From the NCBI GenBank assembly GCA_031365725.1, contig JANLYQ010000010.1, positions 50,238 through 114,237 of the forward strand: 64,000 nt of DNA. The letters run 5' to 3'. Positions 7,115 through 54,611 of this stretch are shown one piece after another. The notes under the pieces were generated by a model. The model searched no databases and was not told the DNA's origin. It worked only from the letters and a program-made list of their open reading frames with translations. Both the position numbers and the translations under genes were made by a program. Numbering within the stretch: position 1 is the stretch's first letter; every line of letters begins with the position of its first letter. This DNA is from Sporichthyaceae bacterium (GTDB taxonomy: Bacteria > Actinomycetota > Actinomycetes > JACCUZ01).

Positions 7115-7167
7115 TCGCACCACCCGCAGCACCAACGAACCACAGCACCAACGAACCACAGCACCGT

Positions 7168-7205
7168 CAGGGTCCGGTTGCCGCTTCGGGGGCGGCCGGG
7201 CCCTG
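7168..7205 (+). terminator. GC-rich imperfect hairpin with ttcg tetraloop downstream of hupB (probable actinobacterial-type intrinsic terminator, no U-tract)
   Basis: cagggtccggttgccgc-ttcg-ggggcggccgggccctg, about 55 bp after the hupB stop. Preceded by a 16-bp direct duplication caccaacgaaccacag. Confidence 0.4.
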
Positions 7206-7274
7206 ACTGCGTTCGGCTTGCCCTGACGTCCGTGCGAGGGCGGTCGATCAGGTCGGTCAGGTCGGTCCGGTCGG

Positions 7275-7508
7275 TCAGGTCGGTCCGGCGAAGGTTGCCA
7301 GTGTCAGATGGGTGATGACCGCATCGACCATCTCGATGCGCACCCGCTGACCAAGGCGTACCAGCCGCAGCCCACCGGCGTCGAAAGCCTTGGCGGGAAA
7401 CGCGATCTCGCTACCGTCGTCGAGCAGCACAGTGCCCGTGCGGGTATCGGGGTCGAAGACTCGCACCGTCGCCTGCACGCGGGTGAACCTATCCCGCTCG
7501 CGAGGCAC
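7275..7508 (-). CDS. Hypothetical small protein (77 aa) overlapping the 3' end of cofC by ~20 bp
   Basis: ORF MPRERDRFTRVQATVRVFDPDTRTGTVLLDDGSEIAFPAKAF... with an OB-fold-like pattern. GC3 is only moderate (~76%), so the coding status is uncertain. Confidence 0.3.
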   Translation of the reverse strand: MPRERDRFTRVQATVRVFDPDTRTGTVLLDDGSEIAFPAKAFDAGGLRLVRLGQRVRIEMVDAVITHLTLATFAGPT

Positions 7509-8163
7509 GCGTCAGCGCATGACGGTGCTCGGTCAGCACGGCGGCGGTGGCATGCCCCACCCCCAGCTCGGCAGCCTCCAGGAGGTGCGCCGTCGTGTCG
7601 ACGTCGCGACGCAGCCGCACCTCGGCATCGAGCTCGTGCGCAGACCGTGCATGAGCAGCTGCCGATGCGGTGCCGAATCGCGGCCGCAGAGCCTCGCCGT
7701 CCCGTGCCAGCAGCAGCGTCGTGCCCGAGCCGTCGGCGTCCCGGACGAATGCCCGTCCGGCCGGGGCAGCCGCCAGGACCGCAGTCAAAGCGTCAGGACG
7801 CAGTGTCGGCAGGTCCGCGGTCAGGACACCCACAGAGGCGTCCGGCTGCTGCCGGGCAAGCACCAGCGCGCCGTGCCGCAGGGCGGAGTTCAGTCCCCGG
7901 GTGAGAGTCGGCGACCCGGCCGGCCGGTCCCCGGTCACGTCCGCGCCGAGGGCAGCGAGCGCGGTGGCGACCACCTCGTCGTCGGTCACGACCAGCACCG
8001 TCGACACCATGGGAGAGCCCAGCGCCGCCACGACCGTGTCGGTGGCGAAAGCCAGCGCAAGAGCCCCCCGGACGCCGTTGTACGGCGGTCCGAGGCGGCT
8101 CTTGGCGACGGCGAGGGGTTTGACCGGCAGCACAAGGCACCACCGACGCTCGCTGTCGTCCAC
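7489..8163 (-). CDS. cofC: 2-phospho-L-lactate (phosphoenolpyruvate) guanylyltransferase, F420 biosynthesis
   Basis: CofC/FbiD signature (RWCLVLPVKPLAVAKSRL...). Start chosen at GTG 8163 (VDDSERRWCLVLPVK). The longer ORF-track start would collide with divergent plsC. Equivalent of Mtb Rv2983. Confidence 0.8.
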   Translation of the reverse strand: MDDSERRWCLVLPVKPLAVAKSRLGPPYNGVRGALALAFATDTVVAALGSPMVSTVLVVTDDEVVATALAALGADVTGDRPAGSPTLTRGLNSALRHGALVLARQQPDASVGVLTADLPTLRPDALTAVLAAAPAGRAFVRDADGSGTTLLLARDGEALRPRFGTASAAAHARSAHELDAEVRLRRDVDTTAHLLEAAELGVGHATAAVLTEHRHALTRASRAG

Positions 8164-29459: not shown

Positions 29460-29529
29460 CTGATCCGGCGGGCTGGCCGAGCTGAGCGTCGCGTCGACGA
29501 CGTGGTCCTGCGGCGGAACTCTGCGCCCC

Positions 29530-29618
29530 GTACCCACGAACACACAGAAGCCGCTGATTCAGGTTCTGCTGAGCGTGCACCCAGCGGCCCGTCCCCACTT
29601 CTGTGTGCTCGCCGGTAC
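29530..29618. repeat. GTAC-bounded ~90-bp palindromic element, copy 1
   Basis: 21-bp imperfect terminal inverted repeats gtacccacgaacacacagaag ... cttctgtgtgctcgccggtac (perfect 10-bp core cacacagaag/cttctgtgtg) around a 47-nt interior containing gagcgtgc. Confidence 0.6.
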
Positions 29619-29750
29619 ATCGAGCCCGCCGAGGCCGACGAGGCCGACCCGCTGATCTTCGCCCTCTCGCACGCGGACCAGCTCCCCGAGTGGCGGAACC
29701 TGGCTGCTCGCCCCCATCCAGCGGCGGAAGGTGGTCGTCGGCAGCGTCGA

Positions 29751-29840: not shown

Positions 29841-29865
29841 CCGTGTGGCGGGCGGAGTGATGGGC

Positions 29866-29955
29866 GTACCCACGAACACACAGAAGCAGCGGTTCCGGGT
29901 CCTGTTGAGCGTGCGCCCCGGCGGCTCGTCCCCGCTTCTGTGTGTTCGTCGGTAC
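29866..29955. repeat. GTAC-bounded ~90-bp palindromic element, copy 2
   Basis: gtacccacgaacacacagaag ... cttctgtgtgttcgtcggtac with one TIR mismatch. Interior has ctgttgagcgtgcgccccggcgg, homologous to copy 1. Confidence 0.6.
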
Positions 29956-30034
29956 AGCCGCCGTTCCCTTCGACGTCGTGTCCGGCTCAACGAGCGGGGC
30001 AGCGAAGGCCGTCGGTTGACCTGAGAGACTGCCC

Positions 30035-31679: not shown

Positions 31680-31700
31680 GCGTCCGATCTGTGGATCGGC

Positions 31701-31747
31701 GTTACCGCGACGTAACAGGCGCTGCGGGATTGATACCTGCCGGAAAC
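31701..31747. promoter_or_regulatory. Putative GlnR-type boxes upstream of amt-glnK-glnD
   Basis: gttac-cgcgac-gtaac (31701-31716) and gatac-ctgccg-gaaac (31732-31747) resemble the actinobacterial GlnR a-site/b-site consensus gTnAc-n6-GaAAc. They lie 70-120 bp upstream of the amt GTG. Confidence 0.35.
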
Positions 31748-38948: not shown

Positions 38949-39518
38949 GTGGCTGTCAAGATCAAGCTGATGCGCATGGGCAAGATCCGCGCGCCGTACT
39001 ACCGCATCGTCATCGCCGACTCGCGCACCAAGCGCGACGGTCGGGCGATCGAGGAGATCGGCAAGTACCACCCCACCCAGGAGCCCTCGCTGATCGAGGT
39101 CAACTCCGAGCGCGCGCTGTACTGGCTGGGGGTCGGCGCGCAGCCGACCGAGCCCGTCGCCGCGATCCTGAAGGTCACCGGCGACTGGCAGAAGTTCAAG
39201 GGCCTGCCGGGCCAGGAGGGCACCCTGCGGGTCGCCGAGCCCAAGGCCGACAAGAAGCTGGTCTTCGAGGCAGCGGCCAAGGCATCGGCCGGCGAGCCCA
39301 AGGAGGGCGCGACGACGCCCAAGAAGAAGGCCGTCAAGAAGGCTGTTGCCCCCGAGGCTCCTGCGGCTGAGGCTCCTGCGGCTGAGGCACCAGCTGTCGA
39401 GGCTCCTGCGGCTGAGGCACCGGCTGTCGAGGCTCCTGCGGCTGAGGCACCGGCTGTCGAGGCGCCTGCTGCTGAGGCACCTGCTGCCGAGGACGACGCC
39501 CCGAAGGCCGAGGCTTAA
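38949..39518 (+). CDS. rpsP: 30S ribosomal protein S16 with a ~100-aa Ala/Pro/Glu-rich C-terminal extension containing (APA[AV]E)n repeats
   Basis: Canonical S16 core [43 protein letters not shown]... The tail is encoded by 15-nt tandem repeats at ~39353-39490. Confidence 0.85.
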
Positions 39519-51030: not shown

Positions 51031-52269
51031 GTGCCTGCTGAGCCCACGACATCCGCAGTCCCCGACCTTTCGCAGGGCCGCGGTGACCGACCGGCGACGG
51101 CGCAGGAGCCGAACCCGTTCTGGGGTCCCGACTGGCCCGAGGTCCGGGAGCTGTGGCCGCTGGAGCCGACCGTGGCCCACCTCAACCACGGATCCTTCGG
51201 AGCGGTCCCGCGGTCGGTGCTCGAGGAGCAACAGTCCTGGCGGGACCGGATGGAGGTCAACCCGGTCCGGTTCTTCCGCCGCGAGCTTGCCGCCGCGCTG
51301 AGCACGGCCCGCGGTGAAGTCGCGGATTCCTTCGGTGCGCAGGAGGAGTCGCTCGCTTTCGTGTCCAACGCCACCAGTGGCGCGGGCACCGTGCTGGCGT
51401 CGTTCCCGATCGAGGCCGGCGACCGGGTCCTGCTCACTGACCACAGCTATGGCGCGGTAGCCATCGCTGCGCAACGGTTCGTGCCCGAGCGCGGCGGCGT
51501 CCTCGACACAGTGGCCGTCCCGCTGGCGGCTGATGACGCGGAGGTTGTTGAGCGGGTGCTCGCGGCGGTGGTCGACCGGACCCGGCTGGTGGTGTTGGAC
51601 CACATCACCTCACCGACTGCTCGGCGGCTCCCAGTGGAGCAGCTCATCCCGGCCTTGCAGGACCGCGACATCGCCGTGCTGGTCGACGGCGCCCATGCGC
51701 CGGGCATGATCGAGGTTCGGCTCGACGATCTCGGGGCGGACTTCTACGTCGGGAACCTGCACAAATGGGTTTGCGCCCCGCGGGGCACGGCGGTGCTGCA
51801 CGTCGCTCCGCGGTGGCGATCGCGGGTGCGTCCGCTCGTGGCGTCGTGGGGCGAGGCTGACGGCTTCCCCGCCGCCTTCGACGAGACCGGAACTGAAGAC
51901 GCGACCGCATGGCTGTCGGCGCCGCGCGCGCTACGTGCCCTGCAGCACCTCGGGCTGGAGCGCCTGCGGGCGCACAACGTGGCCCTTGTCGGTTGGGGGC
52001 AGCGGCTGGTCGCGAATGCGCTCGGGCTCAGCCCTGCTGACCTGTCGGTCCCGACCTCGCTGAGCATGGCGCTGGTGCCGCTGCCGGCAGGAGTGGCCAG
52101 CTCGACGGAGTCCGCACTGGCGTTGCAGACTCGACTGGGCGAGGAGTCGTCGGTCGAGGTGACGGTGGTCAGCTGGGGTGGGCAGGGTCTGCTGCGCGTG
52201 TCGGCCCAGGCCTACAACTGTCCGGGCGACTTCCACCGCCTCGCCGACGAACTGCCCGCCCTGCTCTGA
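51031..52269 (+). CDS. Aminotransferase class V-fold PLP-dependent enzyme (cysteine desulfurase / isopenicillin-N epimerase-like)
   Basis: 412 aa, GTG start. Motifs HLNHGSFGAVP, VLDHITSPTA, NLHKW (PLP-Lys). Confidence 0.75.
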   Translation: MPAEPTTSAVPDLSQGRGDRPATAQEPNPFWGPDWPEVRELWPLEPTVAHLNHGSFGAVPRSVLEEQQSWRDRMEVNPVRFFRRELAAALSTARGEVADSFGAQEESLAFVSNATSGAGTVLASFPIEAGDRVLLTDHSYGAVAIAAQRFVPERGGVLDTVAVPLAADDAEVVERVLAAVVDRTRLVVLDHITSPTARRLPVEQLIPALQDRDIAVLVDGAHAPGMIEVRLDDLGADFYVGNLHKWVCAPRGTAVLHVAPRWRSRVRPLVASWGEADGFPAAFDETGTEDATAWLSAPRALRALQHLGLERLRAHNVALVGWGQRLVANALGLSPADLSVPTSLSMALVPLPAGVASSTESALALQTRLGEESSVEVTVVSWGGQGLLRVSAQAYNCPGDFHRLADELPALL

Positions 52270-52318
52270 CCCGCAGGCGACGGCCGCCCGACTGGGGTCA
52301 GCCCGTGCGACCGCGGCT

Positions 52319-52408
52319 GTACCAACCAACACACAGAAGCTGCCATCTGGTTGTCTCTGCACGCTCGTGGAGCCACGTCAGCGCCGGCTTCTGTGTGTCC
52401 GCCGGTAC
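52319..52408. repeat. GTAC-bounded ~90-bp palindromic element, copy 3 (inverted orientation relative to copies 1-2)
   Basis: gtaccaaccaacacacagaag ... cttctgtgtgtccgccggtac. Interior carries gcacgctc, the reverse complement of gagcgtgc. Lies in the convergent intergenic between the aminotransferase and the M23 peptidase. Confidence 0.6.
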
Positions 52409-52435
52409 GCGGGCTGCCCAGTGACGGCCCGAGGG

Positions 52436-52483
52436 CCCGGGGCCGGGGGCCGGGGGCCGGGGGCCGGGGGCCGGGGGCCGGGG
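52436..52483. repeat. (CCGGGGG)n heptanucleotide microsatellite, ~7 units; G-quadruplex / i-motif-forming potential
   Basis: cccggggccgggggccgggggccgggggccgggggccgggggccgggg. Followed at ~52487-52504 by the perfect 18-bp palindrome gcgttaccgaggtaacgc. Confidence 0.8.
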
Positions 52484-52593
52484 AAAGCGTTACCGAGGTA
52501 ACGCCCCCTGGGGACAATCTCCGGTGCGTGGTCGGGTCCGGTGGCGCGACTCCGCCCGGCGTGCTAACCGGGTCCGTGCCCGGCTCGGGCGGC

Positions 52594-53199
52594 TCACCAG
52601 ACGGGAAGCAGGCGCACGTGGACCCGGCCGCCCACCAGGGTCAGGGGGTCGAGGTACGTCTCGCCCCGGCGAAGCCCCCAGTGCAGGCAGGCCGCAGGCG
52701 CGCAGTGGCTCGCGACCGCCTCCAGGGTGCCGAGGGCGTGGCCGGCGACGACCCGATCACCGCGACGCACGATGGTCAGCACCGGTTCGTAGGTCGTGCG
52801 CAGCCCGCCGGGGTGTTCGACGCTGACCACCCCTCGCCCGGCCACCACTCCGGCGAAGGTCACGACGCCGGGACCGGCGGCGAGCACGAGGAAGCCGACC
52901 TGGCTGGCCAGGTCGACGCCGCGGTGCCCCGGCGCGAACGGCCCGGCTGGTGGCTGAAACCTCGTCACCACCATGGGCGGCGGGTCCAGCGGCCACTGCC
53001 ATGACCCACCGATGCCGATGCCGGTGGTGCCACTCGCACGGGTTCGGGGAGTGGGCGCAGTGACCGGGTCGGTCGCCGGTGCGGCCAGGGCGAGCACGAG
53101 GGGTACGACGGCAGCGAGGCGGTTGACCGCCCCGGTGACTCGTTGGCCTGGACCTGGGCGGCGAGGCCGGCGCTGGCGGAGGGCGAGGTCGAGGTGCAT
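52594..53199 (-). CDS. M23 family metallopeptidase (Rv2891-like), secreted
   Basis: N-terminal signal/TM (LAAVVPLVLALAAPA). C-terminal LytM-type motifs (HRGVDLA ... HLHWG-like CLHWGLRRGETYLDP). Divergent from rpsB as in mycobacteria. Start taken at ATG 53199. Confidence 0.6.
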   Translation of the reverse strand: MHLDLALRQRRPRRPGPGQRVTGAVNRLAAVVPLVLALAAPATDPVTAPTPRTRASGTTGIGIGGSWQWPLDPPPMVVTRFQPPAGPFAPGHRGVDLASQVGFLVLAAGPGVVTFAGVVAGRGVVSVEHPGGLRTTYEPVLTIVRRGDRVVAGHALGTLEAVASHCAPAACLHWGLRRGETYLDPLTLVGGRVHVRLLPVW

Positions 53200-53558
53200 A
53201 CAGCCAACCTGGCGCCGCGCAACCCCTTCGGACTGCCCGGACGCGAAGATGTGGACAACCTCGGCCACCTGGAGGCTGTGGATTTCCAGCGCCGTTGCCC
53301 ACCGACGTACACTCGGCGCAGCGTCCCGCCTCGGCGGGGCGACTTCGCACGCCCGCACACCGCCATCGACCGGCAGCAGCCGGTCACCGACGGGGGCGCG
53401 CTCACCGGTCCGCCCGACCCGCGATGGCGACGGCGGCGAGCGCACTCGCAGGCGTCAGGACGTGGACGGCCGCCCGGCCGCCCGCGAGGCAACCGATAGC
53501 GCACGTGCCCGTTCGCCCCGGCGAGCCATGAGAGGCAGGTGCAGAGACGAGAACTCAG

Positions 53559-54491
53559 ATGGCCGGCACCACCCAGGTCGTCTCGATGAAGCAGCTGCTC
53601 GAGAGCGGCGTGCACTTCGGACACCAGACCCGCCGTTGGAACCCGAAGATGAAGCGATTCTTCTTCACCGAGCGCAACGGCATCTACATCATCGACCTCC
53701 AGCAGTCGCTGTCCTACATCGACCGCGCGTACGAGTTCGTCAAGGAGACCGTTGCGCACGGCGGCTCGGTGATGTTCATCGGCACCAAGAAGCAGGCCCA
53801 GGAGGCGATCGCCGAGCAGGCGACCCGCGTCGGCATGCCCTACGTGAACCAGCGCTGGCTGGGCGGCATGCTCACGAACTTCCAGACCGTGCACGGTCGC
53901 CTGCAGCGCCTCAAGGAGCTCGAGCAGCTCGACTTCGACGACGTGGCCGGCTCGGGCATGACCAAGAAGGAGCTGCTCGTCCTGCGTCGCGAGAAGGACA
54001 AGCTCGCCAAGACCCTCGGCGGTATCCGCGACATGTCCCGCGTCCCGAGTGCGGTCTGGATCATTGACACCAAGAAGGAGCACATCGCCGTCGGCGAGGC
54101 CCACAAGCTCCGCATCCCGGTGGTCGCGATCCTCGACACCAACTGTGACCCGGACGAGGTCGACTACAAGATCCCCGGCAACGACGACGCGATCCGCTCC
54201 GTCACGCTGCTCACCCGGGTGATCGCCGACGCGGTCGCCGACGGCCTCATGGCTCGCGTGCGCACGTCCCAGGACGGGGACGAGAAGCCGGGTACGGACG
54301 GACAGCTGGCCGTCGACGAGCCGCTTGCGGCCTGGGAGCAGGAGCTGCTCCAGGGCAGCGCTGCTCCGGTGGCTGAGGCTCCGGTGGCTGAGGCTCCGGT
54401 GGCTGAGGCTCCGGTGGCTGAGGCTCCGGTGGCTGAGGCTCCGGCGGCTGAGGCACCGGCGGCCGAGCCCAGCCCCACCCCGGCCAGCTGA
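53559..54491 (+). CDS. rpsB: 30S ribosomal protein S2 with a C-terminal (APVAE)n repeat tail
   Basis: [22 protein letters not shown] core. The tail is encoded by 15-nt tandem repeats gctccggtggctgag at ~54362-54465. Confidence 0.9.
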
Positions 54492-54516
54492 ACTGCCCTC
54501 CCCGGCCGGCCCTCGC
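54491..54516 (+). terminator. GC-rich hairpin immediately after the rpsB stop (candidate partial terminator/attenuator between rpsB and tsf)
   Basis: cccggccgg-ccctcgcg-ccggccggg 9-bp stem, no U-tract. Confidence 0.35.
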
Positions 54517-54611
54517 GCCGGCCGGGTGAGTGCGCGGGCCTGCGCCCTACGACACGTACGCACTGCACCGCACCCCGACGGGTCACCCCCAGAGAGCGAG
54601 ACGCACACGTC

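What the first reader, a model, noticed from the sequence alone, without database searches (positions are those of the whole stretch)
52436..52504. (CCGGGGG)7 G-quadruplex-type microsatellite plus adjacent perfect 18-bp palindrome next to repeat copy 3
This is a near-perfect heptanucleotide SSR with runs of 5 G (cccgggg + ccggggg x5 + ccgggg). It can form G4 DNA on the top strand and an i-motif on the other. It sits 28 bp from palindromic element copy 3 and is followed by gcgttaccgaggtaacgc (8-bp perfect inverted repeat with 2-bp centre). The whole cluster lies in a convergent intergenic region where the aminotransferase and M23-peptidase genes end 3' to 3'. Long perfect SSRs are rare in high-GC bacterial chromosomes and are slippage-prone. 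The palindrome looks like a dimeric regulator site; the half-site gttac/gtaac is the same pentamer as the putative GlnR-type half-sites upstream of amt.
Basis: seen in the sequence. Interest (0 to 1): 0.5.

Follow-up and report, generated by a model that had tools for sequence, protein, structure and literature searches.

The report
G-rich 7-base microsatellite between genes
A real but probably functionless run of about seven CCGGGGG units, followed by a small hairpin, sits in non-coding DNA between two genes that end facing each other in an uncultured high-GC actinobacterium; its closest available relative lacks it, so it is an ordinary, recently arisen slippage repeat and not a regulatory switch.

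Summary
A period-7 array spans 52429-52483, with a perfect 45-nt run at 52439-52483. The perfect 18-bp palindrome lies at 52487-52504. Both sit in a 324-bp non-coding spacer between a class-V aminotransferase (+) and an M23 peptidase (-). Three independently assembled read-derived contigs confirm both ends of the array and the palindrome.

The array is the strongest predicted G-quadruplex site in the window. It is the only perfect repeat there with a unit longer than 3 nt and at least 4 copies.

The regulatory reading does not hold:
- No promoter or ORF is affected.
- The nearest relative (87% aa in the aminotransferase) keeps the adjacent 90-nt palindromic element but lacks the ~125 nt carrying the repeat and palindrome.
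- The palindrome is GTTAC-n4-GTAAC, not the n6 spacing of a GlnR box.
- It is unique in the sequence available.
- As a hairpin (-21 kcal/mol) it is no more stable than the coding background.

(CCGGGGG)n arrays recur in at least 120 metagenome contigs. At one orthologous locus they differ in unit number (5 vs 8). The array therefore belongs to the known class of G4-prone heptameric intergenic repeats, whose function is unknown. Most likely it is a neutral slippage product. Interest is low.

The parts
52429..52483 (+). G-rich heptanucleotide microsatellite, consensus CCGGGGG, 7.9 units. The perfect period-7 run is 52439-52483. Two degenerate units (CCGAGGG, CCCGGGG) sit at the left end.
   Evidence: G4 prediction. 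Read support.
52487..52504 (.). Perfect 18-bp palindrome GCGTTACC-GA-GGTAACGC. It folds as a 7-bp stem with a 4-nt loop.
   Evidence: Confirmed in Logan contig L207.
52478..52511 (.). Extended hairpin. The last repeat unit CCGGGG pairs with CCCTGG across an AAA bulge around the palindrome. dG is -21.3 (+ strand RNA) and -18.8 (- strand RNA) kcal/mol. On the - strand it is followed by UUU and then the C-rich repeat.
   Evidence: z -3.5 and -3.0. It is not above the coding background of -20.5 +/- 3.1, and there is no T-tract terminator.
52411..52535 (.). Lineage-specific segment of about 125 nt that carries the repeat and the palindrome. It is absent from the orthologous spacer of relative L083. 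Boundaries are approximate.
   Evidence: plus manual alignment of the right flank.
52320..52409 (-). Neighbouring ~90-nt palindromic element, copy 3 (GTACC-n5-ACACACAGAAGC ... GCTTCTGTGTG-n5-GGTAC). It is not part of the repeat, but it shares the spacer and is conserved at this site in L083.
51031..52269 (+). Class-V aminotransferase (annotated elsewhere as isopenicillin-N epimerase-like). Its stop codon is 160 nt upstream of the array.
52594..53268 (-). M23 family metallopeptidase. The start is uncertain: the public annotation has a 126-aa product. Its stop codon is 89 nt from the palindrome.

Best explanation
This is a neutral, recently arisen G-rich heptanucleotide microsatellite. It was produced and is kept in flux by replication slippage. 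It lies in the least constrained part of an unusually long convergent spacer, between the 3' ends of the aminotransferase and M23 peptidase genes. That gene junction is itself a hot spot for insertions in related genomes.

The array can very probably form G-quadruplex (G strand) and i-motif (C strand) structures in vitro. Changes in unit number have no gene or promoter to act on, so it is not a contingency locus.

The adjacent 18-bp palindrome is a modest stem-loop whose base is extended by the last repeat unit. At most it contributes a weak 3'-end hairpin for the M23 transcript (hairpin, then UUU). It is not a GlnR-type operator.

Shown: the sequence, non-coding status, uniqueness, absence from the closest relative, recurrence and length polymorphism of the same motif elsewhere.

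Inferred: slippage origin, neutrality and G4 formation.
For: 1. The array is real and non-coding and is confirmed by independent read-derived contigs.
2. Relative L083 is 87% identical in the aminotransferase and about 88% identical in nucleotides from the stop codon through the palindromic element. It lacks the ~125 nt that hold the repeat and palindrome.
3. More distant relatives have a spacer of about 55 nt (L002), overlapping genes (L205), a cupin-like ORF by my reading (L001, L003) or an IS481 transposase (L204) at this junction. The junction is therefore plastic and needs no conserved signal.
4. In my rough gene map, convergent spacers in the window are -4, -4, 9, 13, 17, 19, 160 and 324 nt. 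This one is the longest.
5. The degenerate units at the left end (CCGAGGG, CCCGGGG) are what an expanding and decaying microsatellite would show.
6. (CCGGGGG) arrays of at least 4 units occur in at least 120 metagenome contigs with unrelated flanks. L092 and L103 have identical flanks but 5 versus 8 units.
7. G-rich heptameric intergenic repeats are a described class with no demonstrated function. Heptamers are thought to be favoured by polymerase slippage (PMC4692102).
8. No promoter-like or terminator-like consensus lies in 51900-53000, and there is no Rfam match.
Against: - Neutrality is inferred from non-conservation in a single relative. It cannot be decided whether the window lineage gained the segment or L083 lost it.
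- The segment just right of the element (52408-52425) is complementary to 52291-52309. This hints that part of the segment may be old and was deleted in L083.
- The hairpin is more structured than shuffles of its own sequence (z -3.5), and its stem is built partly from the repeat. A pure accident would not be expected to do that.
- The rest of this genome could not be searched, so a dispersed family of such arrays or palindromes cannot be excluded.
Confidence: 0.6

Rival explanations
1. Bidirectional transcription barrier. The G-rich array, the hairpin and the neighbouring long palindromic element together stop the two convergent transcripts from colliding.
- For the aminotransferase transcript, the G-rich strand is the non-template strand, which favours G4 and R-loop formation.
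- For the M23 transcript, the hairpin is followed by UUU and a 55-nt C-rich stretch that resembles a Rho loading site.
For: - The position fits: 89 nt after the M23 stop and 160-218 nt after the aminotransferase stop.
- The hairpin has z -3.0 to -3.5 and is followed by UUU on the - strand.
- This is the strongest G4 prediction in the window.
- The - strand repeat RNA has 5 C to 2 G per unit and is not more structured than shuffles.
- Xanthomonas and Nostoc heptamer repeats are enriched within 50 bp after stop codons on the sense strand, and most are transcribed (PMC4692102).
Against: - No canonical terminator was found.
- A hairpin of -19 to -21 kcal/mol equals the coding background of -20.5 +/- 3.1. 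The window's convincing 3' hairpins are much stronger: 7167-7206 at -35.3 and 54495-54533 at -30.6.
- Six of the eight convergent junctions in the window have spacers of 19 nt or less, and relatives have overlapping genes or a spacer of about 55 nt at this junction. No barrier is needed there.
- The module is absent from the closest relative.
Confidence: 0.2
2. Regulatory protein site. The palindrome is an operator for a dimeric transcription factor (GlnR-like or other). The adjacent repeat tunes its activity by changing length.
For: - It is a perfect 8+8 palindrome that contains A/T in a 72% GC genome.
- GTTAC/GTAAC is rare in the window: 9 sites against about 46 expected from base composition. 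Three of the 9 lie in the amt upstream region, including GCGTTACCG-cgac-GTAAC, which shares a 9-mer with the palindrome.
Against: - The spacer is 4 nt, not the 6 nt that defines the GlnR box (PMC10704036).
- It lies downstream of both neighbouring genes, with no promoter-like site and no coding signal in the spacer.
- It is unique in the window and in 1.66 Mb of related and unrelated loci.
- It is absent from relative L083.
- Perfect palindromes of this size are near chance frequency.
Confidence: 0.06
3. Footprint or cargo of a mobile-DNA event. The ~125-nt segment arrived with, or was left by, an insertion or excision at this insertion-prone junction. The repeat then expanded within it.
For: - The junction carries different insertions in different relatives: a palindromic element, IS481, or an extra gene.
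- The segment begins directly at the end of the palindromic element.
Against: - No terminal repeats or target duplication were recognised.
- No similarity to any other sequence in the window or in the fetched loci.
- Copies 1 and 2 of the element have nothing similar next to them.
Confidence: 0.1
4. Assembly artefact: the repeat, or its length, was created by the assembler.
For: - The source is a metagenome-assembled contig.
- The k=31 contigs break inside the array.
Against: - Contigs from two sequencing runs reach 30-33 nt into the array from both sides with identical sequence.
- They break exactly where a perfect run longer than 31 nt must break them.
Confidence: 0.03

Closest known systems
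G-rich heptameric quadruplex-forming intergenic repeats of Xanthomonas (GGGAATC) and Nostoc (GGGGAYT), described by Rehm et al. 2015 (PMC4692102)
   Same: - 7-nt unit with one G-tract per unit.
- At least four tandem units.
- Non-coding location downstream of a gene, with the G-rich strand on that gene's sense strand.
- Length variation between relatives.
- No function demonstrated.
   Different: - The unit is GGGGGCC: pure G/C, five G, with CC loops that can also base-pair into hairpins.
- Only one array was seen in 64 kb, so a dispersed family is not shown for this organism.
- It lies 160 nt, not 50 nt or less, from the stop codon.
- Not tested biophysically.
Human C9orf72 (GGGGCC)n hexanucleotide repeat
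   Same: Almost the same sequence, one G shorter per unit. It is known to form DNA and RNA G-quadruplexes, hairpins and R-loops, and to be unstable in replication (reviews PMC9916761 and PMC4661408, seen as title and abstract only).
   Different: It is eukaryotic, intronic and pathogenic at hundreds of units. The array here has 7-8 units in a bacterial spacer, and the period is 7, not 6. The likeness is a structural analogy only.
Phase-variable heptanucleotide repeats, e.g. (TGAAAGA)n in the hmw1A/hmw2A promoters of Haemophilus influenzae (PMC2651432)
   Same: A tandem 7-nt repeat whose unit number changes by slippage.
   Different: Those repeats lie within promoters or ORFs, so unit number changes expression. 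This array lies downstream of both neighbouring genes.
Actinobacterial GlnR box (5-nt a-site, 6-nt spacer, 5-nt b-site; GTnAC-n6-GTnAC)
   Same: The half-sites GTTAC and GTAAC fit GTnAC. A canonical n6 example is present upstream of amt in the same window.
   Different: The spacer is 4 nt, and the site is not upstream of any gene.

Membership tests
G4-prone heptameric intergenic SSR (Rehm et al. 2015 class) | Tandem 7-nt unit containing a G-tract of at least 3 G, with at least 4 consecutive units | tested here: met
   7.9 units with G-runs 3,4,5,5,5,5,5,4.
G4-prone heptameric intergenic SSR (Rehm et al. 2015 class) | Located in non-coding DNA | tested here: met
   No codon-position GC periodicity between 52270 and 52560, and the flanking genes are identified.
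G4-prone heptameric intergenic SSR (Rehm et al. 2015 class) | Many dispersed copies in the same genome | tested here: inconclusive
   Only one array in the 64-kb window, and the rest of the genome was not available. Some metagenome contigs carry two or more GGGGGCC arrays.
G4-prone heptameric intergenic SSR (Rehm et al. 2015 class) | Quadruplex formation shown by CD or melting in K+ | not testable with these tools
   Prediction only: G4Hunter 2.56 and ViennaRNA G4 model -75.8 against -30.8 kcal/mol.
Contingency locus (phase-variable SSR) | The repeat lies within an ORF or a promoter/5' region, so that unit number changes expression | tested here: not met
   It lies downstream of both genes. 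No promoter-like site and no coding signal were found.
Contingency locus (phase-variable SSR) | Unit number varies among strains at this locus | tested here: inconclusive
   The k=31 contigs break in the array. Orthologous arrays of the same motif elsewhere do vary: 5 vs 8 and 5.1 vs 6.1 units.
GlnR box | Two 5-nt sites fitting GTnAC / GnAAC | tested here: met
   GTTAC at 52489-52493 and GTAAC at 52498-52502.
GlnR box | 6-nt spacer between the a-site and b-site (11-bp register) | tested here: not met
   The spacer is CGAG, 4 nt. The rule comes from PMC10704036. The amt site in this window has 6 nt.
GlnR box | Located in the promoter region of a regulated gene | tested here: not met
   It lies between two convergent 3' ends.
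Intrinsic (Rho-independent) terminator | Stable G+C-rich stem-loop shortly after a stop codon | tested here: inconclusive
   The stem-loop lies 89 nt after the M23 stop, with dG -18.8 to -21.3 and z about -3. It is no stronger than the coding background of -20.5 +/- 3.1.
Intrinsic (Rho-independent) terminator | U-rich tract directly after the stem | tested here: not met
   Only UUU on the - strand and none on the + strand. The terminator scan found 0 sites.

The most novel reading that the evidence does not exclude
GGGGGCC heptamer arrays may be an undescribed, widespread family of length-polymorphic, quadruplex-forming intergenic repeats in GC-rich environmental bacteria. They would be the high-GC counterpart of the Xanthomonas and Nostoc GGGNATC repeats. 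In this reading the array here, with its attached hairpin, works as a structure-based insulator or 3'-end signal between convergent genes.
Probability: 0.12. Interest if true: 0.45.

Novelty: new member of a known kind. Interest (0 to 1): 0.2.

Why it matters
As it stands, it matters little. It is a clean natural example of a G4- and i-motif-capable microsatellite in a very GC-rich bacterial genome, and it could serve as a strain marker or a biophysical test sequence.

If arrays of this motif proved to be a dispersed, positioned family acting on transcription or replication, they would extend the still unexplained class of bacterial quadruplex-forming heptamer repeats to high-GC soil bacteria.

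The more useful by-product is the conserved 90-nt palindromic element next to it, which deserves its own look.

Tried and rejected
- **Coding repeat.** Rejected. Three ORFs of 101-217 aa cross the array, but none has a Pfam hit and the spacer shows no codon-position GC periodicity.
- **Known RNA family.** None found at gathering threshold or at E<=1. No tRNA or tmRNA.
- **Canonical promoter or terminator.** None in 51900-53000.
- **The repeat is part of the neighbouring palindromic element.** Rejected. The three copies align only between their GTACC and GGTAC ends.
- **Strain-level copy number.** The only other assemblies of this organism are k=31 contigs that break in the array. Three guesses at the M23 start codon or gene call found no record.
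- **More close relatives.**
  - The genome scan gave at most 67% identical aminotransferases.
  - The protein search gave only this genome plus relatives of 68% identity or less.
  - A C-terminal query gave nothing close.
  - Only L083 was useful.
- **Gene-context classification of the metagenome arrays.** A crude GC3 frame test was too noisy to use: 16 of 40 were unclear and many gaps were artefacts.
- **Palindrome in viral contigs.** Two exact hits, about the number I estimate by chance, with no shared flanks beyond 19-20 nt.
- **Literature on the sequencing runs.** No paper found.

Full report
**What is there.** The window is 72% G+C. At 52429-52483, Tandem Repeats Finder reports a period-7 array with consensus CCGGGGG, 7.9 copies and 93% matches.

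Read directly, the sequence is ccgaggg, cccgggg, five perfect ccggggg, and ccgggg. The perfect period-7 run is 45 nt, at 52439-52483.

A three-unit pattern with up to two mismatches matches six overlapping times here and nowhere else. The expectation from dinucleotide shuffles is 0.02, and no shuffle of 100 reaches six. It is the only perfect repeat in the window with a unit above 3 nt and at least four copies.

Three A's follow, and then the perfect palindrome GCGTTACC-GA-GGTAACGC at 52487-52504, which is unique in the window.

**Setting.** Pfam identifies a class-V aminotransferase at 51031-52269 (+) and an M23 peptidase ending at 52594 (-). Codon-position GC periodicity is clear in both genes and disappears between about 52270 and 52560. 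The 324-bp spacer is therefore non-coding, and the ORFs that cross the repeat are spurious.

There is no Rfam match at gathering threshold or at E<=1. No tRNA was found. No sigma-70-like promoter or hairpin-plus-T-tract terminator lies in 51900-53000.

In a rough gene map of the window, the convergent junctions have spacers of -4, -4, 9, 13, 17, 19, 160 and 324 nt. This is the longest.

**Is it an assembly artefact?** The organism is an uncultured Actinomycetota. The aminotransferase has one 100% match, on a 177,782-bp public contig and in read-derived Logan contigs of two runs. After that, nothing is above 68% identity.

Logan contigs L081 and L082 end at window 52468, and L207 begins at 52454. 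A k=31 assembly graph must break at exactly these positions if the perfect run is longer than 31 nt. That Logan uses k=31 is my own knowledge.

L207 differs from the window at 4 of 1162 positions. None is in the last 30 nt of the array, the AAA or the palindrome. The feature is therefore real. Its exact unit number could not be checked independently.

**Structure predictions.** My G4Hunter implementation gives 2.56 for the array, the highest value in the window. It is also the only motif with four runs of at least four G.

ViennaRNA with its quadruplex model gives -75.8 kcal/mol for the G-strand RNA, against -30.8 for the best hairpin. Without quadruplexes, neither strand of the repeat folds better than its shuffles. 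These are predictions only.

The palindrome folds as a 7-bp stem with a 4-nt loop. It is extended across the AAA bulge by pairing of the last repeat unit CCGGGG with CCCTGG. The energies are -21.3 kcal/mol (+ strand RNA, z -3.5) and -18.8 (- strand RNA, z -3.0).

Three controls weaken the hairpin's case:
- Perfect hairpins with arms of at least 8 bp number 36 in the window, against 27 +/- 5 in shuffles.
- The best 40-nt fold in random 150-nt coding stretches averages -20.5 +/- 3.1 kcal/mol.
- The convincing 3' hairpins of this window are much stronger: 7167-7206 at -35.3 and 54495-54533 at -30.6.

**Comparative evidence (the key result).** Contig L083 (ENA ERZ28573553) carries the same convergent gene pair. 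Its aminotransferase is 87% identical over 265 aa, and its M23 is 75% identical.

From the aminotransferase stop codon through the end of the 90-nt palindromic element, the two spacers align at about 88%. L083 then has only about 48 nt before the M23 stop. These are homologous to the last ~58 nt of the window's spacer (and my manual alignment).

The ~125 nt at 52411-52535, which hold the repeat and the palindrome, are absent from L083.

More distant relatives show other states at this junction:
- A spacer of about 55 nt (L002).
- Genes overlapping by 4 nt (L205).
- An IS481-family transposase (L204).
- An extra ORF (L001 and L003), which I read as cupin-like but did not test.

The junction is therefore plastic and carries no conserved signal. 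The repeat and palindrome are lineage-specific.

Whether the window lineage gained the segment or L083 lost it cannot be decided from one relative. A 13-bp complementarity between 52291-52309 and 52408-52425 leaves loss open for part of it. The non-repeat parts of the segment resemble nothing else in the window or in the fetched loci.

**The regulator idea.** GTTAC/GTAAC is rare in the window: 9 sites against about 46 expected from base composition. Three of the 9 lie upstream of the ammonium transporter gene.

There, GTTAC-cgcgac-GTAAC and GATAC-ctgccg-GAAAC both have the 5+6+5 architecture that defines actinobacterial GlnR boxes (PMC10704036).

The palindrome, however, is GTTAC-cgag-GTAAC, with a 4-nt spacer. 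It also lies downstream of both neighbouring genes. It is unique in the window and in 1.66 Mb of fetched loci apart from the same organism's own contig. It is missing in L083.

The shared 9-mer GCGTTACCG is within chance for nine sites in a GC-rich genome, by my estimate of about 0.3 such pairs expected. It fails two of the three defining features of a GlnR box.

**The contingency idea.** Known phase-variable heptanucleotide repeats sit in promoters or ORFs, for example the hmw promoters of Haemophilus influenzae (PMC2651432). Here nothing is positioned to respond to a change in unit number.

In the 80 listed:
- G+C ranges from 0.42 to 0.81.
- Arrays run from 4 to more than 15 units.
- Flanks are unrelated.
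- Several contigs carry two or more arrays.

Five pairs of contigs share identical flanks. In two of them the arrays differ in length: L092 and L103 have 5 versus 8 units with 300 and 77 nt of identical flanks, and L126 and L129 have 5.1 versus 6.1 units. The motif is therefore recurrent and length-polymorphic in nature.

This matches the described class of G-rich heptameric, quadruplex-forming intergenic repeats in Xanthomonas and Nostoc. Those repeats are over-represented in non-coding DNA near gene ends. They vary between close relatives and have no established function. Heptamer abundance has been attributed to polymerase slippage (PMC4692102).

My attempt to classify the gene context of the metagenome arrays was too noisy to use.

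**Conclusion.** The most likely explanation (0.6) is a neutral, recently arisen slippage microsatellite in an unconstrained convergent spacer. It is G4-capable by sequence, and the small adjoining hairpin is at most a weak 3'-end structure.

| Rival | Confidence | Main point |
|---|---|---|
| Structure-based bidirectional transcription barrier | 0.2 | Cannot be excluded without transcript mapping |
| Regulator site | 0.06 | Fails the GlnR spacing and location tests |
| Mobile-DNA footprint | 0.1 | Compatible with the main explanation |
| Assembly artefact | 0.03 | Contradicted by independent read-derived contigs |

The array is a new member (new unit sequence, new host group) of a known kind. 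Interest is low.

Noticed in passing
window 29529-29619 (+), 29865-29957 (+), 52320-52409 (inverted); L083 919-1008: A ~90-nt palindromic element: CGTACC-n5-ACACACAGAAGC ... GAGCGTGCA ... GCTTCTGTGTG-n5-GGTACA.
- Three copies lie in the window, with no similarity beyond the GTACC and GGTAC ends.
- An orthologous copy sits at the same gene junction in a relative that is 87% identical (aa) in the flanking aminotransferase.
- It is absent from the 67% relatives.
- It folds at -40 to -48 kcal/mol (z -3.4 and -4.6).
- The arm differences between the window and L083 are G-U to A-U changes on the - strand.
- There is no Rfam match.
- It could be a MITE/REP-like element or a structured RNA.
   Followed up: partly
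window 31698-31747: The amt upstream region carries GTTAC-n6-GTAAC and, 15 nt later, GATAC-n6-GAAAC. Both fit the actinobacterial GlnR box architecture. The amt ORF starts at GTG 31819.
   Followed up: partly
window 7167-7206 and 54495-54533: Very stable, near-perfect GC-rich hairpins (-35.3 and -30.6 kcal/mol) lie just after gene ends, with no T-tract. One of them sits in the only other long convergent spacer. They are likely the organism's real 3'-end structures.
   Followed up: no
aminotransferase|M23 junction in relatives: L204 3434-4318, L205 2990-2993, L001/L003 about 7200-7600, L002 about 7186-7240: The same gene junction holds an IS481-family transposase, a 4-nt gene overlap, an extra ORF (cupin-like by my reading) or a short spacer in different relatives. 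It is an insertion-prone site next to the conserved rpsB-tsf-pyrH block.
   Followed up: partly
L092 vs L103; L126 vs L129; L093, L116, L120, L123, L145, L161: In the metagenome contigs, orthologous (CCGGGGG)n arrays differ in unit number between samples. Some contigs carry several such arrays, often in opposite orientation a few hundred nt apart. This suggests dispersed families in some uncultured bacteria.
   Followed up: partly
L208 165-215; L209 2450-2485 (viral contigs): The two exact matches to the 18-mer palindrome in viral contigs each have further CGTTACC or GGTAACG copies within 5-15 nt. L208 reads GGTAACGcccccGCGTTACCgaGGTAACGCcggaCGTTACC, which looks like clustered protein-binding sites. 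There is no evident link to the window.
   Followed up: no
window 39354-39492 and 54363-54467: Two in-frame 15-nt tandem arrays (GAGGCACCTGCTGCT-like, 9 copies; GCTCCGGTGGCTGAG, 7 copies) resemble each other (repeat family D1). The second lies at the 3' end of the gene I assigned to ribosomal protein S2 by synteny with L204.
   Followed up: no
window 52566-52567, 51633, 52740, 53183: Single-base differences separate the window from the read-derived contigs of SRR20217216 and SRR20217217. The identity is about 99.7%, which indicates closely related strains in the samples.
   Followed up: no
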